IMG/VR virus record: IMGVR_UViG_3300024329_000007
Coordinates: 15,937 to 79,936 of that record
Length of the DNA: 64,000 nucleotides
Reading direction: 5' to 3' (one strand)
From: a virus
Position 1 is the stretch's first letter; every line of letters starts with the position of its first letter. Below are positions 4,522-28,600 of the stretch, piece after piece. The notes under the pieces were generated by a model that was given only the letters and a program-made list of their open reading frames with translations, did not search any database and was not told the DNA's origin. A program made the translations under genes and the position numbers.

Positions 4522-5001
4522 TTATCCAAACTTTTTAATTGTCTTTGTTAATTCATCTAAAGATTTACCAACATGTTCACCAAAATCTGCATGAAGATCT
4601 TCATCAGCATCTAAAGGCTGCATATCTCTCCACTCTGTATATTTAGAAACAAACAATTCTGATGCATCCACTATTTTCTTAATATCGGATTTTGCATAGT
4701 CCTTTCCATAGTAACTATTAGGATCTACATCCTGTCTTGCTGTTTCGTCAGTAAATGGATTTTTAATATCGATGCCATCGTAATCAAAATTAAAAGCCTC
4801 AAATGATTTTAAATGCTTCATTCTTTTCTTTTTCTTTTTTTTGTACTCTTCTTCTGCGTCACCCCTGCCGGCAGGAACATCACCAGAACCTACACCACCA
4901 TCCATTGGCAATACAACAGGTCCCATTCCGCCCATTCCAGCTGGAGTTATATTTTCATTGATATCATCAATGAATGACTCAAATGTTGGTACGTATTTCA
5001 T
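4522..5001 (-). CDS. Putative internal head protein with two capsid-targeting-like motifs
   Basis: Begins MKYVPTFESFIDDINE; internal MKHLKSFEAF follows a poly-Lys run. Confidence 0.55.
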   Translation of the reverse strand: MKYVPTFESFIDDINENITPAGMGGMGPVVLPMDGGVGSGDVPAGRGDAEEEYKKKKKKRMKHLKSFEAFNFDYDGIDIKNPFTDETARQDVDPNSYYGKDYAKSDIKKIVDASELFVSKYTEWRDMQPLDADEDLHADFGEHVGKSLDELTKTIKKFG

Positions 5002-5020: not shown

Positions 5021-7936
5021 TTACCAAGCGTAATCAAAAGTTTCAATTTTAGATATTTGATCCTTAATTGTTTTAGCGTAATTTTTAGCTTCTCTTTCGT
5101 AGTAAGATTCAGATTGTCCATATCTTTCTTCAGATTCTTCACCCTGTCTAATGTAATCACAATATCTAGAATAGTTATCTAAAATATTTGACATGTGATT
5201 AGAAGCATCTCTTAATTTAGCTTCTCTACCTTTAGAGTTTTCTCCTATTTTAATTTCATCATATCTAGTTTTATTACCACTCGACAATCCGGCTTTAATT
5301 TGTTCTGCTAATTCATCAATAGCCTTTTCAACCATTTTATCAATTGGTAAAGAAGCTGCCTTGGTAGCTAAAATTTGGTGATATCTGTCTGCGTTAGCTT
5401 TCTTAAAAGCTGCATCATCTGTAAATGCAGTTGCACCTTCTTTTGCTCTTGCTCTGTCACCTCTTAAGTTTTCAGTAGAATACTTCTGTCTAATTAGATC
5501 TAAGCTTACAATAATAACTCTATCAGAAACTTCTGCAATTCTTTTACCATTACTTAAACCAGAAGCACCCCAGCCTCTATATTTCTTGTTTACACCAACT
5601 TGATCTGCAGAACCTTTTCTACCATCTTTTTTCCATGAAGTTGTCTTAGCCCATCTAGACCAGTCGTTAGTATAAAATTCTCTATCACCACCCATAGCTG
5701 CTAATAAACACCCGCCACCTGGAATTGTGCTCATTGCATTGTATGACCTAGAATCCTGTGGTAAATATGGATTCTCTTTTTCATTATCTGAAATAAAGAA
5801 AATAATATTTTTAGAACCACCATGGTTTTTAAATGCTTTTTGTGGGTTATTGTCTAAAATAAAATCTTCATCTTGTATTTTATCAAGGGCAACTTTAGTC
5901 AGTTGGTAAAAACCACCTGCTAATCTAGCTACGTTTTTTCTAGCGTGTTTTCCTTCTTGGTTACTTTGTAAAATACCTGATAATATAGCACTAGATATTT
6001 TTTCGTTTAATACGTTATATTCTGACTCAGTAGTAGCTGATTCTTCGATAAAACTAGCTAAATGTCCATCATCATCCCATCCGTATTTAGAATCGGCTAA
6101 AACAGCTTCAATATCTTTTCTTTTTCCAGTTAATTCAACTTCTGGATGTCCTCCTGCTGGGCCAATCTCTCTTAATACTTTTAATTCAACTTTGTGTTTC
6201 TTTAAAAGTTTTTTAAGTCCTTTTGATTCAGGGTCTGTAGCATCCATTATTACAGTAGCTTCACATAATTTTTCGTCTAGCCTATCAAAGAAGTCAAAGT
6301 GTTCACTTTGTAAATCTTCACCATACTTTTCGTCCCATATTTCAGCTAATTCATATTTAGTAACTTTACCTTTATACTTATCCATGATTTCAACATAGAT
6401 ACTACCATATTCATATTCAAAATCTTCACCATAAGAAAGATCCCATGCCTTTTCAATATCTTTAAATGTAAGCTTTTTGGCTTTGGCTTCAGTAACTACT
6501 GATTCTTTTACGAAATTCTTAAGATCATCTGGATCTATAGAGTATTCTACGTCATCCTCGTCACTTCTAAGAACAACTTCATATTTACTTATGTCCCAAA
6601 TCTTAAATTCGGCATCTTTATTAAGAGTAGATCCATCTACGTCGTTAGTTATATCGTAAACATCTCCATCAAAATCATCGCTATGGACTGTAGTTTTAAT
6701 CTTTTGGCCTTTTTTAAATTTAGCCTCGTTAATAGATTTGCTTGAGCTATTAATAAAGCTTGCAAATGATTCATGTAAAAATTTATTATTCATTTTTTTT
6801 GTATTTTTATTTGTTACTTTATAAGTTTTACCATCGAATTCAAATTCTTCGCTGCCCTCTTCAATTGCTTTAGCTCTTGCTCCTAAAAATGCGTTACCTT
6901 CTCTAACATTATCAGCAGATTCAGTATATAGGTTTACATAATTTCTACCTTTTTCAGAGTAAATTGAAGTGATTTTAAATTCACCATCAATTTTCTTACC
7001 AGTATCTTTTTTATAGTATTTAGCATAGTAAGCTTTAAAGAATAAGTTTGGTTCTAGTTCTCCAAAGAAGTGTGTCATTTTACCCATAAAGAATTTAGCA
7101 GATGGATAATAAGTTGTTATATCTGCTTTGGTTTCAGCATCTAAAACACCTTTATCGAAATCTTTTACAAATTTAGCTTCAGTAACTACTGATTCTTTAA
7201 CAAGAGAATCTGCGTCTATTGCTATTTCACTTGAAAAAGTCTTTAAACCATTAACCACAATCATACCATCTTTTTGTATACGAGTAACTTCACCTGAATC
7301 GAATGGTTTTTTAGAACTTCTGCTTAGAATAGAAACTTTATCTCCTACTCTAAATTTAGCTTCAGTAACTACAGATTCTTTAATTCTATACTTTTTCATT
7401 AAAGATTCAGCATCATCAATTGCATCTTGTAATTCTTGATCGCCCAAATCTGCCCAGTATTCAGATCCTCTTTCTCCGTCTAAATAATTCTGAGATATTT
7501 GTTCCCATTCATTTTCTGCTTTTCTATCATACATTAAAATACTATCAAGGTCTCCGATTCTGTCTACAAGAGCGTTAACGCTATAATTTCTATTATCAGA
7601 GCCAGCCATTGGACCATATTCATTAAGTTCTTTAGACTTAGAAGTTTTATTTAGCTCACCAAGAATTTTAATACCCCATCTCGAAAGTGATACACCATCT
7701 TCAGATACATTAAAGTATTTTTTATTTCTAGATTTCCATTGTTTATGATCTCCGGAAAGTTCAGAAATAATTTTAGTAAATTCTTCTTTAGTAATTACAC
7801 CATCTTTAATAGCCTCAATAACTGAATTTCTTACACTAGCCGTTTTACCAACAGTCCTTGCTGGATGGCGTTCTGTATATTTTCGTTTAAGTGTTAGTTT
7901 TTTACCTTCACTCAAGAATTCATTAAATTTTTTCAT
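5021..7936 (-). CDS. Modular polyprotein-like internal head protein (about 9-10 modules)
   Basis: Leader MKKFNEFLSE; three KESVVTEAK linkers plus ELNE, NVRE, SINEAK, LCE and VLNE junctions separating 55-95 aa modules and a long C-terminal domain. Confidence 0.6.
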   Translation of the reverse strand: MKKFNEFLSEGKKLTLKRKYTERHPARTVGKTASVRNSVIEAIKDGVITKEEFTKIISELSGDHKQWKSRNKKYFNVSEDGVSLSRWGIKILGELNKTSKSKELNEYGPMAGSDNRNYSVNALVDRIGDLDSILMYDRKAENEWEQISQNYLDGERGSEYWADLGDQELQDAIDDAESLMKKYRIKESVVTEAKFRVGDKVSILSRSSKKPFDSGEVTRIQKDGMIVVNGLKTFSSEIAIDADSLVKESVVTEAKFVKDFDKGVLDAETKADITTYYPSAKFFMGKMTHFFGELEPNLFFKAYYAKYYKKDTGKKIDGEFKITSIYSEKGRNYVNLYTESADNVREGNAFLGARAKAIEEGSEEFEFDGKTYKVTNKNTKKMNNKFLHESFASFINSSSKSINEAKFKKGQKIKTTVHSDDFDGDVYDITNDVDGSTLNKDAEFKIWDISKYEVVLRSDEDDVEYSIDPDDLKNFVKESVVTEAKAKKLTFKDIEKAWDLSYGEDFEYEYGSIYVEIMDKYKGKVTKYELAEIWDEKYGEDLQSEHFDFFDRLDEKLCEATVIMDATDPESKGLKKLLKKHKVELKVLREIGPAGGHPEVELTGKRKDIEAVLADSKYGWDDDGHLASFIEESATTESEYNVLNEKISSAILSGILQSNQEGKHARKNVARLAGGFYQLTKVALDKIQDEDFILDNNPQKAFKNHGGSKNIIFFISDNEKENPYLPQDSRSYNAMSTIPGGGCLLAAMGGDREFYTNDWSRWAKTTSWKKDGRKGSADQVGVNKKYRGWGASGLSNGKRIAEVSDRVIIVSLDLIRQKYSTENLRGDRARAKEGATAFTDDAAFKKANADRYHQILATKAASLPIDKMVEKAIDELAEQIKAGLSSGNKTRYDEIKIGENSKGREAKLRDASNHMSNILDNYSRYCDYIRQGEESEERYGQSESYYEREAKNYAKTIKDQISKIETFDYAW
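6483..7381. repeat. Three dispersed in-frame 26-30 nt direct repeats encoding KESVVTEAK
   Basis: gcttcagtaactac(t/a)gattcttt within 6483-6508, 7169-7198 and 7352-7381. Confidence 0.9.
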
Positions 7937-7938
7937 GT

Positions 7939-8334
7939 TTATTTAAGTTTTTTTAATATACCGTCTATTTCTGTATATGAGCAATTTGCACCCTTAACTA
8001 TAAATGATCCATAAGAGATTGAAAGGTTTGCACCTTCACCTCCAGTTTTTACTTGAGTTTTATATGCTTCTTCTATAGATGCTTGATCTTCAGCAACAGC
8101 AACAACTTTAGGTCTAAATCCAGCGCCTACATTATGATCGTCTAAAGATCTTAAATGCATTTGTTCTCCATTAACTTCTACTGTATTATGTAGTATTAAT
8201 GCAAAGTGGGTTTCACCCTTACCAGGTAAATCAAAACCATCAAATGCATATTTGCTAAAATAATATGATCCGAATTTTATTTTTTCATTTACTAAACTAT
8301 TAGTAAATTCTCCAAATGTTTTTGTATTTTTCAT
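7939..8334 (-). CDS. Hypothetical protein with capsid-targeting-like leader
   Basis: Begins MKNTKTFGEFTNSLVNE. Confidence 0.65.
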   Translation of the reverse strand: MKNTKTFGEFTNSLVNEKIKFGSYYFSKYAFDGFDLPGKGETHFALILHNTVEVNGEQMHLRSLDDHNVGAGFRPKVVAVAEDQASIEEAYKTQVKTGGEGANLSISYGSFIVKGANCSYTEIDGILKKLK

Positions 8335-8351
8335 ATTAGTATATTATTTTT

Positions 8352-10205
8352 TTATATATTCTTAATAAAATCATTAAATGTTTGGAAATCCGTTTTAGTA
8401 GATTCTTGCACAACTCCCATAGAGTCTTCCAGTTTAGACTTTAACTCAGCATACATATTATGTAATGCCTTTGGTGTTAGCTTCTTAAAGAGCTTCTCAT
8501 CACCGTCTAACATTGCATTTCTTACCTGTGTTGCTGATATATTCTTACCAGTTCTAGGGATTTCAAATAAACCAAAGTCATCTCTAACTCCTAGGTCATC
8601 TCTATATTCTTGTTTATCTACTTGGAATCCATAAGTTCTCATTCTATCACTTCCTGTTCCCCATAATACTGGTTCGTATTTTGGTCTCATTGCATTAAAC
8701 ATAGTGTCAATACCGCCGGTTGGAATTACAAAAACTTCTTCGATTGGATATTTAGATTTTAAAGAGTTAATCATTGCTACTTGAGTCTCCTCATCATAAG
8801 GTCTCTTAAATGCATCCTCTTTTTTCTTGTTCTTAGCTTTTACTAATAATATTACTACTGGGTAGCCATTTTGTTTATGAATAGTTTCAACTACTTTAGC
8901 ATGGCCTAGTGTAAATGGTTGGAATCTACCAACAAACATATTAACTAATTTCTTGCCTTGTTCTGGGTGGTCCACCTTTAATGCTTCTAAAATAGGACTT
9001 GTTTGTGATTTTAAATCTTGATTATTTAAGTATGTTTGAAAATTCATAACCTCATCTTCTTTTACATCTCCAACAATTAGGCTTTCAATATTAGTGACTA
9101 TTGTGTTTACTTTTGACATTAAGTCTTTATTAATAATATCTGTTTCTTTAGTTCTCTTTTTTCTAAAGCTACCTAATGCTATTTTAAAAAGCTCAGATAA
9201 AACTTTATTGTTTACTAATGATATTGTTTTCTCATTCTTAATAAACGCTTTATTAAGTTCAAAACCTGGAAGTGATGCAAAGTCAGCAGAATTAAAACTA
9301 GTTCCGATATACTTAGTAGCATGCTTATCAATATAAGCATTAAAAATAATTGAAATTAGTTCAATATATCTTTCATCAGTTTTTTCTGCGTCTAATTGAA
9401 TTGTATTAAAATCATAACCGCTCATAAATTCAACTAAGTCTAGAATAGACAGTTGATACATGTCGGATGGTGTTCTATCATTATTATAATCTCTATCAAA
9501 TCTTTCTAATTTAAAACTTTTTACATTTTTACCTTCATAGAAATTAATAATAAACGAATCTATATCTTTATCTAGAGTATTGTTTAATGCAGCACTAGAA
9601 GTAGCAGAATTAAATATATTGTAAACTGCTCTAGTAAAAGATTGTTCTTTAAATTTATTTTTAAAAGCCTCTTCGGAAAGTTCTAATATATCTAATAAGT
9701 CATTAACTTGATCTTCTGATAATCTACCTTGAAATATAATTTGAGGTCTTTGTACATCTAATAAATCAGACCAATGATAAAGAATATTTGGGTCTCTAAT
9801 TACCTTTTTAATTTGACTAGGATTAGTTGAACTTATCGTTTGTATGTGTGTTAATATTAAATTATTTTTAGGTAAGGCATCGTACTCAATGTCGATTGCT
9901 TTTTTAGTTGGTAAATAATCAAAACCAAATTTCCAATCTGTTGGAAGCTTTTCTAAAAGTTTAGGATCTAAAGATTTAAAATAATTAATTGCATTTTCAT
10001 AATATTTAACAATAGTCCTATCAACTTTATTCATAGCTATTTTTGAACCACTTTTATAAAATTCAAATTCTCCATTAGAAGATCTTTTAACATGAAATGA
10101 AGAGGCTTGTATCTTTTCAGATATAAGACTTGTTGATTTTATTAACTTAATAAAATCTTGTCTATTACTTGATTCAAAATATGTTTTTAGGTTTTGTAAT
10201 GCCAT
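8352..10205 (-). CDS. Degenerate ligase-like N-terminal domain fused to cytidylyltransferase-like (HIGH-superfamily) nucleotidyltransferase
   Basis: C-terminal FVGRFQPFTLGH and ISATQVR motifs; N-terminal ISEKIQAS resembles a degenerate EKxDG. Confidence 0.7.
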   Translation of the reverse strand: MALQNLKTYFESSNRQDFIKLIKSTSLISEKIQASSFHVKRSSNGEFEFYKSGSKIAMNKVDRTIVKYYENAINYFKSLDPKLLEKLPTDWKFGFDYLPTKKAIDIEYDALPKNNLILTHIQTISSTNPSQIKKVIRDPNILYHWSDLLDVQRPQIIFQGRLSEDQVNDLLDILELSEEAFKNKFKEQSFTRAVYNIFNSATSSAALNNTLDKDIDSFIINFYEGKNVKSFKLERFDRDYNNDRTPSDMYQLSILDLVEFMSGYDFNTIQLDAEKTDERYIELISIIFNAYIDKHATKYIGTSFNSADFASLPGFELNKAFIKNEKTISLVNNKVLSELFKIALGSFRKKRTKETDIINKDLMSKVNTIVTNIESLIVGDVKEDEVMNFQTYLNNQDLKSQTSPILEALKVDHPEQGKKLVNMFVGRFQPFTLGHAKVVETIHKQNGYPVVILLVKAKNKKKEDAFKRPYDEETQVAMINSLKSKYPIEEVFVIPTGGIDTMFNAMRPKYEPVLWGTGSDRMRTYGFQVDKQEYRDDLGVRDDFGLFEIPRTGKNISATQVRNAMLDGDEKLFKKLTPKALHNMYAELKSKLEDSMGVVQESTKTDFQTFNDFIKNI

Positions 10206-10207
10206 TG

Positions 10208-11509
10208 TTATCTACCGTATTTAATAATTCCCATTAATTGATTAATTGCAGCAAAAGTTCCAGTTAGTTTATAAGTATGTCCTTTATATCTAAATACAAG
10301 GCCTTCGGTTGGTATGATAGATTCAATACCTCCAATTCTATCTAAACGTTCTAGTTCTTTAGCTACTTTATTTATCTGAGTTATATCTCCGCCCTTTTTA
10401 ATCTTATCAGCTTCTGTTCTAATTTGATTATGCAGTCTCTGCATTTCTTTATCTGGATTTGCAGCCACAAAGTTAGAAGCGTTCTTTAAGATAACAGAAC
10501 CTAATTCTAAGAAAAGATCTTCAAAAGGTCTAATATTTTCTTTATATTTCTTTTTAACATCTTCTTTGTCAAATCTTTTAACAGCAGCTGCTTCATCTTT
10601 TCCTATTTCCTTTGCAAGACTTCTTAGATTAAGTGTTTTCTTATCTCCATAAGCCCATCTTAATAATAAGCCTTCTTTATAGTCTTGTTGTAAATCGGGG
10701 AAGTTTTTATCAATAGTTTCTCTCCACCACATTTCATGATATCTAGAAACCTCATCTGCATCTGTTAATCCATAACGATCTCTTAGCGCTTCAACCTTTT
10801 TTATAAACTTAAGTTGGTTCTTTTCAAAATCAATATCCTTACCTATCTTAATAATTTGTGGTGGAATAACTGTAAAGACTTTACCAATATTAGCGTTAAC
10901 TTTTTCTAAAGCAGCAGCAATTGATTTACCGTACTTAGGCTCTTCGCCAATTATATTACCATTACCATCTGTTATTTTAATTCCATGAAATTGAATAACG
11001 TCTCTATCATAATAGATAACATTTGGGTTTTTAGAGTAGATAAGCTCCATGTTCATAAAGTTCTTACCATTATCAAATGCTTCTAAATCTTTATCAGATA
11101 ACTTGACTAGAGAAGTTGCTAAATCTTTAGCAGCAAAAATATAAGTTTCTTCAACTAATTTTGATGCATGTCCAGTAAACATATCGATAATACCATTAAG
11201 GTCTAATGGGTTTGCCATTTGTCCTTTATTTCTAGCAAACATTGCTTGGCCATCCTTTACAGTGACAAAAAGATTTTGCCCATCAGTTTTTTCAGTAGGC
11301 TCTTCTTCAAAATTAAGTTCACCGCTAAGTCCAGATTGGATTAATTTTTTAAAGTCTCCAAATGTTAATTGTTTATTATCAAATGGATGTGACATGTGTC
11401 CTGCGGCACCACCTTCAAGTATTAAAGCCTCATTAACCGAAAATGAAGGAGCCTCTTTCAAAGTCCTTCTTTCCAGTACAAATTCTCTATAAGATTGTAG
11501 TTTTTTCAT
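10208..11509 (-). CDS. ATP-dependent RNA/DNA ligase-like nucleotidyltransferase (DUF6267-like)
   Basis: TEKTDGQN (motif I KxDG), NMELIY, EGLVF (motif IV), YKLTG (motif V); N-terminal GGAAGHMSHPFD. Confidence 0.6.
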   Translation of the reverse strand: MKKLQSYREFVLERRTLKEAPSFSVNEALILEGGAAGHMSHPFDNKQLTFGDFKKLIQSGLSGELNFEEEPTEKTDGQNLFVTVKDGQAMFARNKGQMANPLDLNGIIDMFTGHASKLVEETYIFAAKDLATSLVKLSDKDLEAFDNGKNFMNMELIYSKNPNVIYYDRDVIQFHGIKITDGNGNIIGEEPKYGKSIAAALEKVNANIGKVFTVIPPQIIKIGKDIDFEKNQLKFIKKVEALRDRYGLTDADEVSRYHEMWWRETIDKNFPDLQQDYKEGLLLRWAYGDKKTLNLRSLAKEIGKDEAAAVKRFDKEDVKKKYKENIRPFEDLFLELGSVILKNASNFVAANPDKEMQRLHNQIRTEADKIKKGGDITQINKVAKELERLDRIGGIESIIPTEGLVFRYKGHTYKLTGTFAAINQLMGIIKYGR

Positions 11510-11510
11510 A

Positions 11511-13583
11511 TTATGCTAGTGATGATTGTAAAATTCCTGCACATTTTCCGTAGTCACCATCGCATTTTTTTAATATGCCGGCAACAACCTCGTCTGCTTT
11601 AGCCTCATCAAATTCTTCTCCAAAAGCTTTTTGTAATACTTCGTATGCGTATTCTTTAAAATCTTCTTCAGATTTAATTTCAGCCTCGTTTACAGATTCA
11701 AAAAGAGAATTAAAATCATCTAATAAAGATTGTCCCATTCTTTCTTCTTTAAGCTCTTGTAAAAATAGAGCAGTTCCTTCAACAATCCCTTGGCCAGACC
11801 ATCCTGCCGCATTAGCGATATCTGAATAGTATTTGTCTAGAATCCTTTTTAAAGTAGTAGTTCCTAGTTTTACAAAGTGTCCACCTAGACCTGGTAACTT
11901 AATCTCTAAAGCCGCCATTTTACCTTTAATGTTTCTAGAAACAATTTTTTCTCTATGGAAGTTAGCGTCTGTCATTGCTTCTTCAAAAAGATATTTAACA
12001 CAACCTCTAATAGACTCATGAGACATTGCACCAAAATCTGGTAAAGTCTTATAGAATATTTTCTTATATTGTGTAACTACCTTTTTAGCATCTCTTTTGC
12101 CGTCAACTTTAATAGCTTCATTAACTACTGATTCATTGCACATTGAAACTAATTCTTGTGCAATCTTTTTTGCTTTAGAACCTTTATGTCCATAAGATTC
12201 AACTGTATCTAAAGCATCTTCCATTTCCATGCCATGTAATTCTCCCATGTCTCCTCCTCTTTCATCTAAAAGATCCTGTAAGATATTTTCAGCTTCTGAT
12301 TCATTAACTACTGATTCAAAATAATCTTCATAGTCAGAGATTGAGTCTGGTCCCCATACATCAGCTAAAACTTTTTCGATATCTTCTCTTTTACCGGTTA
12401 ATTTAACTTCTGGGTAACCGTGGTCACCTTCTTCTTTTTGAACTTTCATTTTAACTTTATTCTTCTTTAAAGATGTAGTTAAGGGTTTAAATTTAGTTGG
12501 GTGTATATCGTCATCGTTTCCAAATTCTATACCCGAAAGAGATGTTTCATTAACAACTGATTCAAAGGTTGATGATGGCATTAGTTCTTTATCGCCATAT
12601 ATGTCTGCTACCAACCAATTTTTATTCTCTTCATCCCATAAATAAACCCACTCAGCGCCGGCTCCATTTGAAACATCATTTAAATATTGGTCTACTTTTT
12701 TATATTGTCCTGTTGTTTGCATGTCACCGCTTTCACCACGATCTCTTCCGTAAAAAATAGTATAACCTCTAGTCGGATTAGAAAAACTATGTTTCTTACC
12801 TATTGATTTATCTAAAAATGAAATACCAGCCTTTCCTAATTTCATTAATTGCTTAATGTCACTTTCGCTATATCCTTTTAACATTGGTAGCATGTGCTCT
12901 GGGTAACCATCAGAATGTACGTATGTTGATGTGATTTTACCACTCTTACTAAGAATACCAATTTGAGATCTAGTTGATTCGTTAACCGCAAGCGACTCAA
13001 ATGCTGGAACTAACTCTGCGTTTCCGTCTACATGTAGCATATACCATTTACCATCTCGCTCGTCAAAAAGATAAACATATTCTGCCCAACCAATATCTTC
13101 TAGATATTTAGACATGTTTTTAATCTTTCCTTTTTGATTTTCCATGTCGCCATAGTAATTCATATACCTTGGGTCTTCTTCTAATCCAGAGCTACCTCCA
13201 TTTTTAAGAACCATGTTTAGTGGCGAACCACCCTTTAAATATGTCATCTTAATAAGTGGTAACATTGCTTCTGGATAAGAATCAGCATGTGTGTATACAC
13301 TTTCTATATTACCTCTTTTGTCTATTTTACCAAAATGGCCTCTAGTGGCTTCTGTTAGTAATAAAATAGACTCATTAAGGCCTAAATTTTTTAACTTGTC
13401 AAAAAATTCAAATCTTTTTTCTTCTTCTAATTCTTTTATTCGAGTTACTCCATATTCAGATAAAAGTTCTTTAAATAGATCTGCTTCGTTAGATCTTTTA
13501 GCGTTCTGTTTTTTCTCTAATGCAACAGTATCTTTTTCATGTTTTGCTGCAGAAAATTCAGCAAATGAATTTAATTTCTTCAT
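11511..13583 (-). CDS. Modular polyprotein-like internal head protein (about 7 modules)
   Basis: Leader MKKLNSFAEF; junctions LLLTE, FESLAVNE, FESVVNE (x2), NESVVNE, FESVNE; tandem duplicated HxD(G/S)YP domain. Confidence 0.6.
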   Translation of the reverse strand: MKKLNSFAEFSAAKHEKDTVALEKKQNAKRSNEADLFKELLSEYGVTRIKELEEEKRFEFFDKLKNLGLNESILLLTEATRGHFGKIDKRGNIESVYTHADSYPEAMLPLIKMTYLKGGSPLNMVLKNGGSSGLEEDPRYMNYYGDMENQKGKIKNMSKYLEDIGWAEYVYLFDERDGKWYMLHVDGNAELVPAFESLAVNESTRSQIGILSKSGKITSTYVHSDGYPEHMLPMLKGYSESDIKQLMKLGKAGISFLDKSIGKKHSFSNPTRGYTIFYGRDRGESGDMQTTGQYKKVDQYLNDVSNGAGAEWVYLWDEENKNWLVADIYGDKELMPSSTFESVVNETSLSGIEFGNDDDIHPTKFKPLTTSLKKNKVKMKVQKEEGDHGYPEVKLTGKREDIEKVLADVWGPDSISDYEDYFESVVNESEAENILQDLLDERGGDMGELHGMEMEDALDTVESYGHKGSKAKKIAQELVSMCNESVVNEAIKVDGKRDAKKVVTQYKKIFYKTLPDFGAMSHESIRGCVKYLFEEAMTDANFHREKIVSRNIKGKMAALEIKLPGLGGHFVKLGTTTLKRILDKYYSDIANAAGWSGQGIVEGTALFLQELKEERMGQSLLDDFNSLFESVNEAEIKSEEDFKEYAYEVLQKAFGEEFDEAKADEVVAGILKKCDGDYGKCAGILQSSLA
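12115..12566. repeat. Three in-frame direct repeats encoding ESVVNE
   Basis: tcattaac(t/a)actgattca at about 12118, 12301 and 12547; nearly the same DNA as the KESVVTEAK repeats at 6.5-7.4 kb. Confidence 0.85.
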
Positions 13584-13616: not shown

Positions 13617-15125
13617 TTATATATCCCCCTCAAAAGTTACGTTTTTAATATCATACTTAAACTTCTGTTCTTTATAGATTTTCTGCCTAGCTTTTGAGTG
13701 TCTTATTAAGTAGTTATCCCAATCCGGTGAGCTTAAGTCATCTACAAAGTCAATAATGTTTACACTATCCTTTGATTTATGTTGCCTTAAACCTCTACCA
13801 ATAGATTGCCTAATGATTACTTCTGATTTAAATGATTCTGTAAAGAATATGTTGTGGATTTTCTTGATGGATATACCAGTTGAGAATGTACCGTATGAAG
13901 CGACGATAACGACTTCTTCTCCGGCTTCCATTTTCTTTTTATATTCTTCTCTAATATCTTTATCAATTCCGCCATCAACATAATAAACTATTTTATTACT
14001 TTCTTGCCTAAGTTTGTCATATATCTTTCGGCCATGTTCAATTCTGTGAAAAAGAACGAGGCTATTTCTCTTAACTCTTGAAATTACACTTGTTATAAAG
14101 TTAAGTCTTCCAGGGGAATTAATTATATAGTTCTGTTCAAATTTAAAAACATCCTTGCTTTCATATCTATTCTGTGACATCTCTCTAAAAGCATCCTTTG
14201 TAGATTGTGCAGCATAATCCATTTTAATTACCTTAACGTGACATTGTGCAATATGTCCTTCATTTTGTAAAAAGTTTGCAGACACCTCCGTAATTACCGG
14301 TCCAGTATAAGCCATAAGAGTAAGTCTATCCAATGTGTTTGCTTTTGGTATTGTACCAGAGAGTCCGCTTCTATATTCAGCGTTAACACATTTTTGTAGA
14401 ATAGTTTTAATTGATGTAGACTTGGCCTTATGTGTTTCATCAATAATAACAGCATCAAACTGTTCAAAATATTCTTTATCTTTTTTAACAAGGGATTGAT
14501 AAGTACCAACTACTACATTTCTACCCGGCCTAATCTTTTGGCCAGAATAGATTTGTTGTACTTTAATATTTGCCCTGCCTTTCCAATTATAGTCTAAAAA
14601 ATCTTCAGTGGCCTGTACTACAAGAGAAACATTAGGTACAATAAAGAGTATTCTTTTTGCCTTTTGTTTTTCTAACATATATGCTACTGTAAGAAATGAA
14701 ATTAAAGTTTTCCCGGCAGAAGTTGCTAATTCAGATAAGCACTTTCTAAATTTAAGGATGTTAAATGCAGCCTCAATCTGATAATCTCTTGGAGTTATTT
14801 GAGAGCCCTCAAAAAATTCTAAGGCCCATTCGGTAAAAGTTTCTTGATTAATATTTCTATCAAACAATTCAGTAATACCATTTATTTTTAATTCGTATTT
14901 ATATTCTTTACAAACATTCATCACTTCTCGCCAAAGACCAGAAGGAATCCATTTGTCATCTTTTATATAAGATATGTAGCCATCCCATAGTCCCTTTTTA
15001 ACCAATGGGTGAAATCTCCAATTTTCTACCCTACGGTTTAAAGAAATATTGAGCTGTTCGATTTCCATTTCTGTAGCCGAATCAACTCTTAGCAATTGCT
15101 TATTATCTGTTAAACTTATTTCCAC
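13617..15125 (-). CDS. uvsW: UvsW-like SF2 DNA helicase
   Basis: WDGYI N-terminal motif, PRDYQ, ATSAGKT, DETH, SGLSGT, QSIGRGLR; adjacent to uvsY. Confidence 0.92.
   Translation of the reverse strand: MEISLTDNKQLLRVDSATEMEIEQLNISLNRRVENWRFHPLVKKGLWDGYISYIKDDKWIPSGLWREVMNVCKEYKYELKINGITELFDRNINQETFTEWALEFFEGSQITPRDYQIEAAFNILKFRKCLSELATSAGKTLISFLTVAYMLEKQKAKRILFIVPNVSLVVQATEDFLDYNWKGRANIKVQQIYSGQKIRPGRNVVVGTYQSLVKKDKEYFEQFDAVIIDETHKAKSTSIKTILQKCVNAEYRSGLSGTIPKANTLDRLTLMAYTGPVITEVSANFLQNEGHIAQCHVKVIKMDYAAQSTKDAFREMSQNRYESKDVFKFEQNYIINSPGRLNFITSVISRVKRNSLVLFHRIEHGRKIYDKLRQESNKIVYYVDGGIDKDIREEYKKKMEAGEEVVIVASYGTFSTGISIKKIHNIFFTESFKSEVIIRQSIGRGLRQHKSKDSVNIIDFVDDLSSPDWDNYLIRHSKARQKIYKEQKFKYDIKNVTFEGDI
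13618..13625 (-). promoter_or_regulatory. GATATATA putative late promoter heading the internal-protein block
   Basis: Exact octamer 35 nt upstream of the ATG at 13583; recurs before six other gene starts. Confidence 0.55.
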
Positions 15126-18839: not shown

Positions 18840-19214
18840 TTAAATTCTTTTACCCATTGCAGCACCAAGAGCGGCACCAACTAATCTGGAAGTTAATAAA
18901 TCGTAAAAAATACCTTTTTGAATTCCTAAAACTTTAGCAATAACCTTTCCAATTGATTTACCTAATGCAAATCCAGCTAAACCACCTATAATAGAACCTA
19001 GAATACCTTCATTAGTCATCTCTTCATTTAAACGATCTAAATCATAAGTACCATCCTTTCTTTTATATTCAGCTTCAAATGCTTCAATAGCCGCATCTAC
19101 TTCAGCTTCTAATTCTGGAGTCCACTCTTCTTGTAAGCCCTCTTTGACTAAAGAATAGTCCTGCTCACTAATTTCGTTTTCTACTAAATAATCGTTAAAT
19201 GTTTTCATATTCAT
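18840..19214 (-). CDS. Putative virion protein: capsid-targeting-like leader, acidic pro-region, glycine-zipper C-terminus
   Basis: MKTFNDYLVE...MTNE|GILGSIIGGLAGFALG...LVGAALGAAMG; GATATATA at 19231-19238. Confidence 0.55.
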   Translation of the reverse strand: MNMKTFNDYLVENEISEQDYSLVKEGLQEEWTPELEAEVDAAIEAFEAEYKRKDGTYDLDRLNEEMTNEGILGSIIGGLAGFALGKSIGKVIAKVLGIQKGIFYDLLTSRLVGAALGAAMGKRI

Positions 19215-25620: not shown

Positions 25621-28600
25621 TTATGACTTTATTTTTATCATAGGCCTTATATCATAAGAGTAGCCTAACCTTTTATTATATATCAGTCTGAAGTTTAGTG
25701 GTGTTTGTGTATGCGGTTTATAAGTAAAATTATTGTCGCTTTCAAATCCATTAGAACTTAGATCGCCTGTATTTAAAGTATTAATAAACTCAGATCCCTT
25801 GCCTTTAAAAGACTTAGTATATAGTACTAAATTATCTATAGTTAAAACATCTATTAAGTTTTTAATAATATAATTCTGAGAATCATCAATAAGTGTAGTT
25901 TTATCACCAAATGATTTTTCCGGATTAACAAACTCTATTAACGTATTTAAAACTCCAGAATCTCTAAGTTTTTTATAGATAACTGAATCCATATAAAAAT
26001 CTGCAATAATATTATTTTTATCTTCAAATATCATAATATCTGCAGTATTGTTAGAATTTCTTAAAATATCATCTAATTCTTCTTTATTGTTAACATTAGC
26101 TGTAGTATAATCTAATAGTAAATATGAATCTTCTAGTGTCATCATTGTAGAGGCTAAATAAGATCTTTCTTCAATAACCCCAAACGTTCCTACGACATTA
26201 GTACTTTTACCACCAGATAAAGACCTAGAATAGTATTCACTATCCCATGAAGACTTAAATACATTTATGTCTTTTTTATCTATTGCGATCTCGCTAATTA
26301 GTGGGTAAAGTGGCAACAAATCACTACTGGCAGAAAGTTTAATAACACCCTTAGTGTTTATATCATTAACTTTGTGGTAAAAATGATTTTTTATTACACC
26401 CCAATTAGAATCATGTTCTCCATTATCTTGTATAAAACCAAGATTAAATGTAGTTCCAGTTCTATTATACCTATTATAGTATTTTCTAGCTATCGCAACC
26501 TCAGATACATCATTTAAAGAGTGTCTATATAAACTTTCTTCAAAAGATCTTTCAACAGCATTACCGGAAACATGATCTCTATTTACTTTAAAATGAGTAT
26601 ATAAATCTGTAAACGTAACCACCGGTCTCATATCCACTGTATAATTTCCAGAATGTCTAATCAAGAATGGGTAGTATGTTTCCCCGGGTACAATATTATA
26701 TCCAATAGTTCCAGAGCTTAACTTAAAAGTCTGTGGTTTATTAGTATCTTCTTCTATTTTTAAATTTGATTCTTTAATAATTTCTTTACCATCTTCAAAG
26801 TTTATAATAAATCTATTATCAAGAACAGTACCGTCTGTAGTTATTGTTTTGTAATTTATATCTGCTCCATTTGAGTTTAACATTTTAGAAACATATTGTA
26901 TAGAAAGTTTTTCTAAAAGTTTAGAATGTGCATTTACACCACCACCTTCATATACATAATCTGCATTAACTAATAATGTTGAACTTAAATAAGCAACAGG
27001 CATTATTATACTAGGATCATCTACTCTATAAGGTATTTCCTGTAATACTAACTCTTCATTTGAATTTACAGTGGCTACTCTTGCTGCCCAAGTACCAACC
27101 GAGCCTGCAAATTCTATTATAATTCTTCCATATAAACCATCACTCCCCGGTGATATTTGAGTATCAAACTCAGGGTCAGTTCCATTGTTATGTTCCATAC
27201 CTCTAACAACGTAGGGCCCAGATCCACTAAAATCAACACTTAATAAATTTAAAGCTCCTGAAAGGTTTGCATCACTATAAACATATTCACCAATACCATC
27301 TCCATAATTATCTGAATTATCAAAAACCATTTTATGATTTAATTCATACATCATTTTTCTAGAAAGAGTATTATCAATCCAAAAATCTGAAATATTTAGT
27401 GTAATAAAGAATATTACAAATTTATGTGCTTCGTTTTTTATAACATCATATTCAATAGAATTTTTGCCGTCTGCTGTATTGTCTTGATTAACCTTAACTA
27501 AAGTACTAAAACGGTAACCATTAAATTCATTATTTTTTACATACTCAGATGCTATTTGATTTGTAAACTCTTTTCTTGATCTAAATAAAACTTTAATACC
27601 TTTAAAGAAAGTGCTTGCAAATGAAATATCATTACCATTTTTAATAATACTATATTTCTTTTTTAAAGGTTTTTTTGCAAACGTGTTCATGTCAAAATTT
27701 ACTGAGCGATCATCTTTTAAATCACTAGAATTAGAGCTTATTTCAAGACCATCACATATCATAAACTTGTCAAAGTAGTCAAGATTATTATCCATAAACA
27801 TCTCTTTAGTTATTTCAAAATCTTGTATAAAATTAATATAACTAAAAGTTTCATTAACATGGTTGTATCTATAAAAATTAGGTATTTTATCTATATAAAA
27901 CCATTCATGAGTAAATGCCTTTTTATCTCTACCAGCAACTGATAAATCTGGTGCGAAATTGGTTCTACCAAAAGCTTCATTAGCATTTAAATAATATGGC
28001 TGTTCTCTAACAGTATCACAATCTTTAAGTACCCATTTATTAATATTAGGAACCACTCGTGAGTTTAAAGATAATTCCTTTACATTATTTTCTTCTAGCC
28101 TATCAAATTCAGAATTAATAAATTTAGAATTAGCACCTACAATAGATTCGTTATCTAATATAGGAAGCAGGTTTGAAAAATATTCAGATGGACTAAGTTC
28201 AAAATCTTCACTTAAAATATCACTGGTTTCAAGGCCTTCATAATTTGCTCTATAACTAAAGAGATCTTCATCTGTCCATTCTTTAGTAGTCGAATAAGGT
28301 TTATACTCAATATTAGAAAACTCTTCTTTATATAGTTCTTTAAGATCAGAATTAGAAGTATCATAAAAATCAAAGTTTAAATCATAAATATCATACGCTG
28401 AAAATAAACCAATTCTAAGGTTATTTTCTCTATATAATCTAAGCTCTCCAGAGCCAATAGAATTAGGCTCACTTAAAATTAACCTATGATATCCAGCATT
28501 TAAGTCTTCAACATATTCAACAACATCTTTAATTTTATTAAATCTGCCCGCGTAATTAGTAGCAATGTAATCATTAATATTAATTTCACTAATAGTATCA

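What the first reader, a model, noticed from the sequence alone, without database searches (positions are those of the whole stretch)
6483..12566. Linkers are conserved at DNA level within and between the two genes, suggesting cassette shuffling
Seen: gcttcagtaactac(t/a)gattcttt occurs three times in the 971-aa gene and tcattaac(t/a)actgattca three times in the 690-aa gene. Synonymous positions are almost fixed (GAA TCA GTA GTT ACT/AAT GAA) while flanking modules are unrelated. Inference: protein-level selection alone would let third positions drift, so these 18-30 nt repeats may be recombination joints through which modules are gained, lost or swapped in frame. UvsW, UvsY and gp32 are encoded immediately upstream.
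Basis: partly seen in the sequence, partly recalled or inferred. Interest (0 to 1): 0.85.

Follow-up and report, generated by a model that had tools for sequence, protein, structure and literature searches.

The report
Cassette-shuffled capsid cargo polyproteins, marine phage
Two long genes of an abundant uncultured marine T4-like phage are strings of small independent proteins joined by one short linker; related phages have gained, lost and reordered these pieces exactly at that linker, which also looks like the cutting site of the phage's head-maturation protease.

Summary
Six copies of an 18-23 nt repeat encode ESVV(T/N)E in the 971-aa and 690-aa genes. Their codon identity (71/81 synonymous pairs) far exceeds codon bias (38-45 expected, p~1e-4).

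The shuffling inference is supported:
- The closest relative carries the 690-aa gene with two modules swapped and one missing. Breakpoints lie inside the ~20-nt linker, and module identities are mosaic (99/87/93/71%).
- 240 metagenomic homologs show at least 78 architectures built from ~50 modules, many used by both genes.
- 83% of 543 junctions carry the motif, against 18% of random windows.
- Linker codons are fixed family-wide (Val1 GTA 44/47, Val2 GTT 42/44).

Best reading of the linker: a T4 gp21-type prohead-protease site (E-S-V-V-N/T-E|A/S/G/K; T4 uses L/I-x-E).
- The proteins start with T4-like capsid-targeting peptides (MKKFNEFLSE against T4 MKTYQEFIAE).
- Relatives encode a Peptidase_S77 protease.
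- Two modules start exactly where free-standing homologs start.
- All six linkers of the 690-aa protein fall in pLDDT dips.

So these are probably head-packaged, injected cargo polyproteins. Packaging, cleavage and homology-driven recombination are inferred, not shown. Module functions are unknown.

Other first-stage notes of this scan gave the same reading of this stretch. This is a new variant of known kinds (T4 internal proteins; motif-mediated modular shuffling).

The parts
5021..7936 (-). 971-aa modular gene (P0001). Layout: capsid-targeting peptide plus N-domain, then seven cassettes, then a conserved 330-aa C-terminal domain.
   Evidence: The C-terminal domain is conserved in more than 393 metagenomic clusters.
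11511..13583 (-). 690-aa modular gene (P0002) with seven modules, m0-m6.
   Evidence: More than 574 homolog clusters. The AlphaFold model shows folded blocks separated by low-confidence linkers.
7907..7936 (-). N-terminal decapeptide MKKFNEFLSE, a T4-like capsid-targeting sequence ending in L-S-E|G.
   Evidence: the family consensus is MxxFEDFLxE|GKK. T4 CTS MKTYQEFIAE; roles of residues 4, 7, 8 and 10.
6486..6508 (-). Linker repeat, KESVVTEAK (971-aa gene, residues 477-485).
7176..7198 (-). Linker repeat, KESVVTEAK (residues 247-255); identical over 23 nt to 6486-6508.
   Evidence: Loose contig ends at 7178, 7197 and 7202.
7359..7381 (-). Linker repeat, KESVVTEAK (residues 186-194); differs from the 6486-6508 copy at one base (the T/A position).
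12115..12137 (-). Linker repeat, NESVVNEA (690-aa gene, junction m4|m5).
   Evidence: Logan contigs end at 12135 in two runs.
12298..12320 (-). Linker repeat, FESVVNES (junction m3|m4).
   Evidence: Logan contigs start at 12291 in two runs.
12544..12566 (-). Linker repeat, FESVVNET (junction m2|m3).
12978..12998 (-). Diverged linker ESLAVNE (junction m1|m2). The next residue aligns with codon 2 of free-standing homologs.
13350..13370 (-). Diverged linker SILLLTE (junction m0|m1). The next residue starts the first phrog_1987-like module.
11685..11699 (-). Short linker ESVNE (junction m5|m6).
7619..7630 (-). ELNE site, at the end of the N-terminal region conserved with relatives (homology with L009 stops at nt 318 of the gene).
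6002..6013 (-). VLNE site, immediately before the conserved C-terminal domain (homology with all orthologs starts here).
12546..13349 (-). Two tandem paralogous modules of the phrog_1987 family; each equals a whole free-standing phage protein.
6017..6232 (-). phrog_5922-type module in the 971-aa gene; a homolog sits at 12300-12545 in the 690-aa gene.
   Evidence: (D4, D10)
12300..12545 (-). phrog_5922-type module in the 690-aa gene (m3).
4522..5001 (-). 159-aa gene with a CTS-like start (MKYVPTFESF...INE) and a second, internal CTS-like stretch.
7939..8334 (-). 131-aa gene with a CTS-like start (MKNTKTFGEF...LVNE|K).
8352..10205 (-). 617-aa conserved gene of the cluster; C-terminal cytidylyltransferase-like domain.
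10208..11509 (-). 433-aa conserved gene of the cluster; CTS-like start (MKKLQSYREFVLE|R) and a KTDG motif.
13617..15125 (-). UvsW helicase, the upstream anchor of the variable cluster in all relatives.

Best explanation
The two genes encode capsid-internal cargo polyproteins of a marine T4-like phage with a large genome. Each is a conserved frame into which small, autonomously folding proteins (cassettes of 55-150 aa) are spliced in frame. The frame is an N-terminal capsid-targeting peptide plus N-domain, and a conserved C-terminal piece. Every cassette ends in the linker E-S-V-(V/I/L)-(N/T)-E. At protein level this linker is most likely a cleavage site for the phage's gp21-family (Peptidase_S77) prohead protease. 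The polyprotein would be carried into the prohead by its N-terminal tag, then cut after the last Glu into separate small proteins that stay in the head and enter the host with the DNA. At DNA level the same 18-23 nt are nearly invariant. They are the place where cassettes are exchanged, deleted, duplicated and reordered, within a gene, between the two genes and between phage lineages. The likely mechanism is short-homology recombination by the phage's own UvsX/UvsY/gp32/UvsW-type machinery during replication or co-infection. Any crossover inside the linker is automatically in frame and regenerates a cleavable site, so almost every recombinant is viable. Shown: the repeats, their synonymous conservation beyond codon bias, module shuffling with breakpoints in the linker, and the large combinatorial diversity. 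Inferred: packaging, cleavage, injection, and homology as the cause of exchange. Unknown: what the cassettes do. Anti-defence or host-takeover roles are suggested only by analogy with T4 IPI* and Alt.
For: SHUFFLING. (1) blastn of the window's 690-aa gene against its L009 ortholog gives segments 1263-1469/594-800 (99%), 1020-1284/780-1044 (87%), 1449-2073/1026-1650 (93%) and 1-493/1-490 (71%). They overlap only in the ~20-nt linkers. Order is m0-m1-m4-m3-m5-m6 against m0-m1-m2-m3-m4-m5-m6. (2) For the 971-aa gene against its L009 635-aa ortholog, only nt 1-318 and 1927-2916 are homologous, ending at ELNE| and VLNE|. (3) Module 254-405 of the 971-aa protein sits in the other gene in L003, L004, L005 and L007. 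(4) There are 33 and at least 45 architectures among 120+120 representatives, from ~50 modules, many shared by both genes. (5) 83% of 543 distinct junctions carry [VILMA][NTE]E, against 18% of random windows. Crisp breakpoints lie within 8 aa of a site in 67% vs 20% (690-aa family) and 41% vs 13% (971-aa family). (6) In seawater runs, contigs break at 12135 and 12291. 6 of 19 listed loose ends lie at linkers. The same foreign sequence abuts linker 7178 in one run and 6488 in another. DNA-LEVEL CONSERVATION. 71/81 identical codon pairs vs 38-45 expected. Across 57 linkers in 22 genomes, Val1 is GTA 44/47, Val2 is GTT 42/44, Thr is ACT 22/24, and Ser is always TCN; background usage is ~0.44/0.42 for the Val codons, and non-orthologous linkers match as well as orthologous conserved codons. 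PROTEASE SITE AND PACKAGING. The junction logo is E-S-V-(V/L/I)-(N/T/E)-E|(A/K/S/G); T4 gp21 cuts after L/I-X-E, first seen at a Glu-Ala bond. The N-terminus MKKFNEFLSE has F4, F7, L8 and E10, the positions that matter in T4's CTS MKTYQEFIAE. Related contigs encode Peptidase_S77 fused to an acidic scaffold, next to portal and gp23-like genes, with a CTS-like 112-aa gene in the position of T4 gp67/68. Site density is 7.2 per 1000 aa in the two proteins against 0.85 in the rest of the contig. Two modules begin exactly at codon 2 of free-standing homologs in CcrColossus and XbC2. All six linkers of the 690-aa protein fall in pLDDT dips between folded blocks. Modules match small free-standing phage proteins by fold.
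Against: There is no proteomic or experimental evidence of packaging or cleavage. The window's own 80-kb contig (about 27% of the genome) holds neither the protease nor the capsid gene; they were found only on relatives' contigs. P3 is mostly Val, whereas T4 prefers Leu/Ile. The N-terminus of the 690-aa protein (MKKLNSFAEF...) lacks Glu at position 10. T4 internal proteins are small and basic, and these are not. A late-promoter test was uninformative. Linker codon identity is no higher within genomes than between them (0.736 vs 0.725), so simple within-genome gene conversion is not the explanation. Synonymous fixation could reflect hitch-hiking of one ancestral linker with spreading cassettes, or an unknown translational or mRNA constraint, rather than selection for homology. 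Many breakpoints (33-59%) were not within 8 aa of a site, partly because BLAST segment ends are imprecise. No domain function was identified.
Confidence: 0.6

Rival explanations
1. The linker is only a structural inter-domain connector. The proteins are ordinary cytoplasmic multidomain proteins that are neither packaged nor cleaved. Shuffling happens by rare illegitimate recombination, and only junctions at neutral connectors survive.
For: Nothing directly shows cleavage or packaging. No protease is on the window's own contig. Linkers lie between folded blocks, as any connector would.
Against: A beta-prone, strictly conserved E-S-V-V-N/T-E|A motif is unlike flexible Gly/Ser/Pro connectors. It matches the gp21-type x-hydrophobic-x-E|A rule. 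The same short site closes the N-terminal T4-like targeting peptide of most genes in the cluster. Modules begin exactly at native N-termini of free-standing homologs. Illegitimate recombination would not explain family-wide fixation of synonymous positions.
Confidence: 0.12
2. The proteins are capsid polyproteins and are shuffled at linkers, but DNA identity is a consequence, not a cause. All linkers descend from one ancestral copy that travels with each cassette, and synonymous sites are kept by frequent cassette turnover or by a translational or mRNA constraint. Exchanges need no homology.
For: Ser is always TCN, never AGY, which is a sign of common descent. Codon identity is equal within and between genomes. 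GTA-GTT and TCA-GTA are the commonest Val-Val and Ser-Val codon pairs in the genome.
Against: Flanking orthologous codons have diverged as much as or more than non-orthologous linker codons (0.50-0.67 vs 0.72-0.74), so descent alone needs added constraint. The codon-pair preferences are weak (18/81 and 26/111). Breakpoints map inside the identical tract with no indels. T4-type phages are reported to recombine at short (<50 bp) conserved motifs (PeSL precedent).
Confidence: 0.22
3. The module permutations are metagenome assembly chimeras made at the repeats.
For: Repeats of 18-23 nt can confuse small-k assemblies. Logan contigs break at these points.
Against: The window's arrangement is held at 96-99% of words in at least 20 runs from 20 studies. 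The exact 690-aa protein was seen on 34 contigs. The alternative order recurs on two independent IMG/VR contigs (L008, L009). Repeats are shorter than the usual final k-mers. Modules have different divergence levels, which chimeras of one population would not give.
Confidence: 0.03
4. The DNA identity of the linkers is fully explained by AT-biased codon usage acting on a conserved peptide.
For: The genome is 32% G+C, and GAA, AAT and ACT are the preferred codons.
Against: Simulations give p<=1.1e-4. The two adjacent Val codons are fixed to different synonymous codons (GTA then GTT) across 22 genomes although both are used about equally.
Confidence: 0.02

Closest known systems
T4 internal proteins IPI/IPII/IPIII and Alt (capsid-targeting sequence plus gp21 processing)
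   Same: N-terminal ~10-aa targeting peptide with aromatic residues at positions 4 and 7 and L/I-x-E at 8-10. Cleavage after Glu by a Peptidase_S77 protease. A hypervariable, non-essential cargo set thought to serve the arms race with the host.
   Different: T4 IPs are single small basic proteins cut once. Here, 2-9 unrelated cassettes are chained in one reading frame with an internal site after each, so one tag would load many cargos. P3 is mostly Val. Packaging and cleavage are not demonstrated.
PeSL-mediated modular shuffling in T4-type phages (Arbiol et al. 2010, PMC2839356; PMC4122927)
   Same: Short conserved DNA motifs scattered through hyperplastic regions of T4-type genomes act as homologous recombination sites that insert, delete and swap cassettes without disrupting neighbours.
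   Different: PeSLs are ~100-bp intergenic promoter/terminator cassettes that move whole genes. Here the joint is 18-23 nt, lies inside an open reading frame, and preserves both the reading frame and a peptide signal.
Polyvalent proteins of phages and conjugative elements (Iyer et al. 2017, PMC5512222)
   Same: Many unrelated domains in one polypeptide, predicted to be packaged in the virion and delivered with the DNA. Processing into separate products has been proposed.
   Different: Polyvalent proteins are defined by recognisable effector domains (MuF, zincin-like peptidase, ART, etc.), and release was ascribed to an in-built peptidase. None of those domains is detected here. Release would be by the head protease at a repeated linker, and the linker is conserved at DNA level.
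phiKZ / 201phi2-1 / SPN3US head and ejection proteins processed by the prohead protease
   Same: Many head-internal proteins are cut after Glu at a minimal motif (S/A-X-E) by a diverged gp21 homolog. The cargo is ejected into the host.
   Different: Those proteins are mostly trimmed of propeptides or cut into a few fragments. No cassette array with a repeated, DNA-conserved linker and combinatorial architectures has been described in the papers read.
Polymorphic toxin loci (CdiA 'VENN', Rhs 'PxxxxDPxGL') and T-even tail-fibre 'His-box' swapping (from own knowledge, not checked here)
   Same: A short conserved peptide or DNA motif marks the border of variable cassettes and provides homology for swapping them.
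   Different: Those systems usually exchange one C-terminal cassette, not an internal ordered array. They are bacterial toxins or phage adhesins, and the motif is not a maturation-protease site.

Membership tests
T4-type CTS-bearing internal head proteins | N-terminal ~10-residue capsid-targeting sequence with key residues at positions 4 and 7 (targeting) and 8 and 10 (processing; L/I-x-E) | tested here: met
   The 971-aa protein starts MKKFNEFLSE (F4, F7, L8, E10). All 120 family members have MxxFEDFLxE|GKK. T4 rule. The 690-aa protein (MKKLNSFAEF) matches only in part, with no Glu at position 10.
T4-type CTS-bearing internal head proteins | A gp21-family (Peptidase_S77) prohead protease in the same phage | tested here: inconclusive
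   Absent from the window's 80-kb contig, which is ~27% of the genome. Present on two relatives' contigs that also carry the orthologous cargo genes.
T4-type CTS-bearing internal head proteins | Physically packaged in the head and cleaved after the targeting peptide | not testable with these tools
   Needs virion proteomics.
T4-type CTS-bearing internal head proteins | Small, basic, single-domain protein cut once | tested here: not met
   The proteins are 690 and 971 aa, multi-module, with 5-7 internal sites.
Polyvalent proteins (Iyer et al. 2017) | 2-15 distinct domains in one polypeptide of a phage or mobile element, in a virion-gene context | tested here: met
   7-9 modules per protein. The cluster lies between replication genes and baseplate/tail genes.
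Polyvalent proteins (Iyer et al. 2017) | Presence of the characteristic effector or anchor domains (MuF, zincin-like MPTase, ART, ArdC-N, etc.) | tested here: not met
   No Pfam family at E<0.01 for either protein. No PDB sequence or fold match.
PeSL recombination cassettes of T4-type phages | Intergenic sigma70-like early promoter plus stem-loop terminator of ~100 bp | tested here: not met
   The repeats are 18-23 nt, lie inside ORFs and are translated.

The most novel reading that the evidence does not exclude
A natural in-frame 'protein integron'. A single ~20-nt element both encodes the head-protease cleavage site and serves as the homologous-recombination joint. This lets abundant marine T4-like phages assemble, reorder and trade arrays of capsid-delivered small effector proteins combinatorially. 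One targeting tag loads the whole array, and every recombinant is automatically in frame and cleavable.
Probability: 0.4. Interest if true: 0.85.

Novelty: new variant of a known kind. Interest (0 to 1): 0.7.

Why it matters
If the reading is right, this is a simple genetic way for a virus to diversify what it injects into its host. It would extend the T4 internal-protein paradigm from single hypervariable genes to combinatorial polyprotein arrays: at least 78 architectures from ~50 cassettes in a lineage found in at least 20 seawater studies. It would define dozens of small protein families as candidate injected effectors, possibly anti-defence or host-takeover factors, for functional screening. 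It gives a concrete case of one sequence under dual constraint, as a peptide signal and as DNA homology. It also suggests a design rule for loading several cargos into T4-type capsids with one targeting tag. The cleavage-site logo can be tested directly in marine virome metaproteomes.

Tried and rejected
- megablast of the locus against deposited phages: no match.
- Pfam, PDB sequence search and ESM Atlas for the two proteins: nothing.
- Foldseek of both full-length models against PDB and BFVD: no significant functional match. The 971-aa model is poor (mean pLDDT 53).
- T4 late-promoter motif TATAAATA: at chance frequency, uninformative.
- Peptidase_S77 and Gp23 in the window's own contig: absent, because the contig is a fragment.
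- First breakpoint statistic using all BLAST segments at 45% identity or more: noisy. Replaced by crisp breakpoints and junction windows.
- My intermediate idea that linker identity reflects within-genome homogenisation: rejected. Within- and between-genome codon identity are equal.
- My crude regular expression for CTS-like starts gave false positives and negatives. Only the per-protein site densities are used.
- The raw-read run X24 had almost no coverage (6 reads), so rare module-skipping reads could not be assessed. The joints listed between the two genes have short sides (21-32 nt) and are treated as weak.
Full report
**1. What is there**

The window is the 3' 64 kb of an 80-kb IMG/VR viral contig. 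G+C is 32%, and CheckV estimates about 27% completeness, which implies a genome of roughly 250-300 kb. The contig encodes T4-type replication and recombination genes: gp32 and UvsW are confirmed by Pfam, along with a primase-like gene and a helicase. It also encodes baseplate and tail genes.

Directly downstream of UvsW, on the minus strand, lies a run of genes whose products nearly all begin with a peptide of the form MK..(T/S)F.EF..E. In order they are:
- the 690-aa gene (11511-13583);
- a 433-aa gene;
- a 617-aa gene;
- a 131-aa gene;
- the 971-aa gene (5021-7936);
- a 159-aa gene.

A further 124-aa gene of this type lies at 18840-19214.

**2. The observation**

The reported strings are present at the stated places and are far from chance: 4 matches against 0.01 expected, and 5 against 0.03. 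They encode KESVVTEAK three times in the 971-aa protein and (F/N)ESVVNE three times in the 690-aa protein.

Among the six ESVV(T/N)E copies, 71 of 81 synonymous codon comparisons are identical. Simulation from codon usage gives a mean of 38 (whole contig, p<1e-5) or 45 (the two genes only, p=1.1e-4). More diverged copies of the same motif mark the remaining module borders: ESLAVNE, SILLLTE, ESVNE, ELNE, SINE and VLNE.

**3. Do relatives differ at the linkers?**

They do. IMG/VR holds related loci with the same gene order anchored on UvsW, but with different gene and module content.

The closest relative is L009, at 90-98% amino-acid identity in shared modules. It has a 549-aa version of the 690-aa gene with order m0-m1-m4-m3-m5-m6, against m0-m1-m2-m3-m4-m5-m6 in the window.

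At DNA level the homologous segments tile the two genes in different order and overlap only within the ~20-nt linkers. Upstream residues travel with the upstream module and downstream residues with the downstream one. The segments differ widely in identity (99%, 87%, 93%, 71%), so adjacent modules have separate histories.

In the 971-aa gene only the first 318 nt and the last 990 nt are shared with the L009 ortholog. Both borders fall at x-L-N-E sites. Module 254-405 of the 971-aa protein is found in the other gene in four relatives. A phrog_5922-type module occurs in both genes, at various positions.

**4. Family-wide picture**

The two proteins have more than 393 and more than 574 homolog clusters in public metagenomes, with lengths of 554-971 and 412-902 aa on contigs up to 250 kb.

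I annotated 120 representatives of each family with a greedily built library of 52 modules. This gave 33 and at least 45 distinct architectures. Each family has a conserved frame (A0...AC; B0-T1-B5...BC) around a variable set of cassettes, and many cassettes are used by both genes.

Of 543 distinct junction sequences, 83% contain [VILMA][NTE]E, against 18% of random windows. Aligned on the Glu, the logo is E(46%)-S(47%)-V(31%)-V/L/I(59/20/19%)-N/T/E(53/29/18%)-E | A/K/S/G(51/16/13/11%); the last three positions before the cut were fixed by the search pattern.

High-identity homology segments that end abruptly stop within 8 residues of such a site in 67% (690-aa family) and 41% (971-aa family) of cases. 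Random positions give 20% and 13%.

**5. Natural populations**

The window's version of the locus is held at 96-99% of sampled words by at least 20 seawater or marine runs from 20 studies, dated 2018-2025. It is therefore a stable, widespread genotype and not an assembly accident.

I laid contigs of three runs on the locus:
- In two runs the pieces end at 12135 and restart at 12291, the two linkers that flank module m4. This is the module that is 99% identical in the rearranged relative.
- 6 of the 19 loose ends listed lie at linkers, although linkers with 10 nt either side make up only about 3% of the stretch.
- One foreign sequence abuts the linker at 7178 in one run and the linker at 6488 in another.

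The raw-read run had too little coverage to look for rare module-skipping reads.

**6. Is the DNA-level conservation special?**

In a first set of relatives some third positions drift. That suggested within-genome homogenisation, but a larger set rejected the idea. Across 31 loci (57 linkers in 22 distinct genomes), non-orthologous linker pairs share codons equally within genomes (0.736) and between genomes (0.725).

As a control I measured codon identity at conserved E/S/V/T/N residues of the orthologous C-terminal domain in the same genome pairs. It is 0.66-0.68 overall and 0.50-0.67 for pairs below 70% protein identity.

The codon choice is position-specific:

| Linker position | Codons observed | Background usage |
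|---|---|---|
| First Val | GTA 44/47 | GTA 0.44, GTT 0.42 |
| Second Val | GTT 42/44 | GTA 0.44, GTT 0.42 |
| Thr | ACT 22/24 | ACT 0.45, ACA 0.42 |
| Ser | always TCN | AGY is 21% of Ser codons |

So the linker behaves as one sequence family kept nearly constant at synonymous sites across lineages whose flanking codons have diverged. This is what is expected if the linker is continually copied and exchanged, or selected as a homology patch. It is not expected from peptide selection plus codon bias.

**7. What the linker is at protein level**

Several independent observations point to a T4-type prohead-protease site in head-packaged proteins.

- (a) T4 gp21 cuts after Glu at L/I-X-E, first defined at a Glu-Ala bond, and has few other determinants. 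The junction logo has an aliphatic residue at P3, Glu at P1 and Ala/Ser/Gly/Lys at P1'.
- (b) The T4 capsid-targeting sequence is the decapeptide MKTYQEFIAE. Residues 4 and 7 matter for targeting and residues 8 and 10 for processing. The 971-aa family starts MxxFEDFLxE|GKK, and the window's copy is MKKFNEFLSE. The other genes of the cluster carry a 13-residue variant that ends in the same site.
- (c) Contigs of two relatives that carry orthologs of the cargo genes encode a Peptidase_S77 domain fused to an acidic scaffold-like region. It is flanked by portal and gp23-like capsid genes. A 112-aa gene with the same N-terminal tag sits in the position of T4 gp67/gp68.
- (d) The site [VIL][NT]E[ASGTKN] occurs 7 and 5 times in the two proteins, against 0.85 per 1000 aa in the rest of the contig.
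- (e) The two phrog_1987-type modules begin at the residue after ...LTE| and ...VNE|. That residue aligns with codon 2 of free-standing homologs in Caulobacter phage CcrColossus and Xanthomonas phage XbC2, and the modules end where those proteins end. Cleavage would therefore release native-like proteins.
- (f) In the AlphaFold model of the 690-aa protein, all six linkers lie in pLDDT dips between folded blocks. Individual modules match small free-standing phage proteins by fold.

**8. Mechanism proposed, and its status**

Shown:
- cassette arrays;
- exchange, loss and reordering with breakpoints in the linker;
- synonymous conservation beyond codon bias;
- occurrence in many natural samples.

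Inferred:
- The N-terminal tag takes the polyprotein into the prohead core.
- The S77 protease cuts after each linker Glu.
- The cassettes remain in the head and are injected.
- Exchanges occur by short-homology recombination at the 18-23-nt identity tracts, using the phage's own recombination system. The PeSL work shows that T4-type phages shuffle cassettes at short conserved motifs and form excised circles.

A reorder such as m3-m4 to m4-m3 can arise by unequal crossing-over between linkers (duplication) followed by deletions between linkers.

The dual role explains why the system tolerates change so well: any crossover within the linker keeps the frame and rebuilds a cleavable site. What the cassettes do is unknown. 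No Pfam, PDB or fold assignment was obtained. An anti-defence or takeover role is only an analogy with T4 IPI* and Alt.

**9. Comparison and novelty**

The parts are known: CTS-tagged hypervariable internal proteins, gp21-type processing, motif-mediated modular shuffling in T4-type phages, and polyvalent virion proteins. In the papers I read, I did not find any of the following:
- chaining of many unrelated cargos in one frame behind one tag;
- a repeated internal cleavage-type linker;
- conservation of that linker at DNA level;
- the resulting combinatorial diversity shared between two genes.

I class it as a new variant of a known kind. Other first-stage notes of this scan gave the same polyprotein reading for this stretch. 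They are unchecked and were not counted as evidence.

**10. Weak points**

- No direct evidence exists for packaging or cleavage.
- The protease is not on the window's own contig.
- P3 is Val rather than Leu/Ile.
- The tag of the 690-aa protein is less canonical.
- The causal role of DNA homology is untested.
- Breakpoint statistics rest on BLAST segment ends and on a module library I built greedily.

Noticed in passing
window 10208-11509 (-) and 8352-10205 (-): Two genes conserved in every relative sit between the two polyprotein genes. The first is a 433-aa protein with a CTS-like start (MKKLQSYREFVLE|R...SVNE|A) and a KTDG motif reminiscent of ligase or capping nucleotidyltransferases; it has no Pfam hit. 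The second is a 617-aa protein with a C-terminal cytidylyltransferase/NMNAT-like domain (PF01467, phrog_3041). If the tag is functional, these would be head-packaged enzymes.
   Followed up: partly
window 4522-5001 (-): The 159-aa ORF has a CTS-like start (MKYVPTFESF...INE) and, after a Gly-rich stretch and a run of Lys, a second internal CTS-like stretch (MKHLKSFEAF). It looks like two small cargo genes fused into one frame.
   Followed up: no
L015:7543-9729 (relative G001): The prohead protease (Peptidase_S77) is fused to a ~500-aa highly acidic, repeat-rich scaffold-like region in one 728-aa ORF. In T4, gp21 and gp22 are separate genes. The ORF contains VNE|S-type sites.
   Followed up: partly
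L005:8001-10099 and L005:2381-4412: In one relative both polyprotein genes are split into two ORFs (62+603 aa; 485+209 aa). These could be frameshifts, recent rearrangements or assembly errors.
   Followed up: no
window 18840-19214 (-): A 124-aa protein with a CTS-like start (MNMKTFNDYLVENE|I) and a C-terminal glycine-zipper membrane-type segment (weak PF13488 hit). It lies outside the main cluster, next to a 216-aa gene.
   Followed up: no
window 6488-6550 and 7178-7240 (-): Similarity between the ends of two otherwise unrelated small modules extends ~20 residues upstream of the linker (E.(A/S)ID.D.L..VKESVVTE). The conserved joint is therefore longer than the hexapeptide in some cassettes.
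   Followed up: partly
window 25621-33150 (-): A single 2509-aa ORF followed by 1229-, 932- and 836-aa ORFs in the tail/baseplate region. None was examined.
   Followed up: no
Its identity rests on size and position only.
   Followed up: partly
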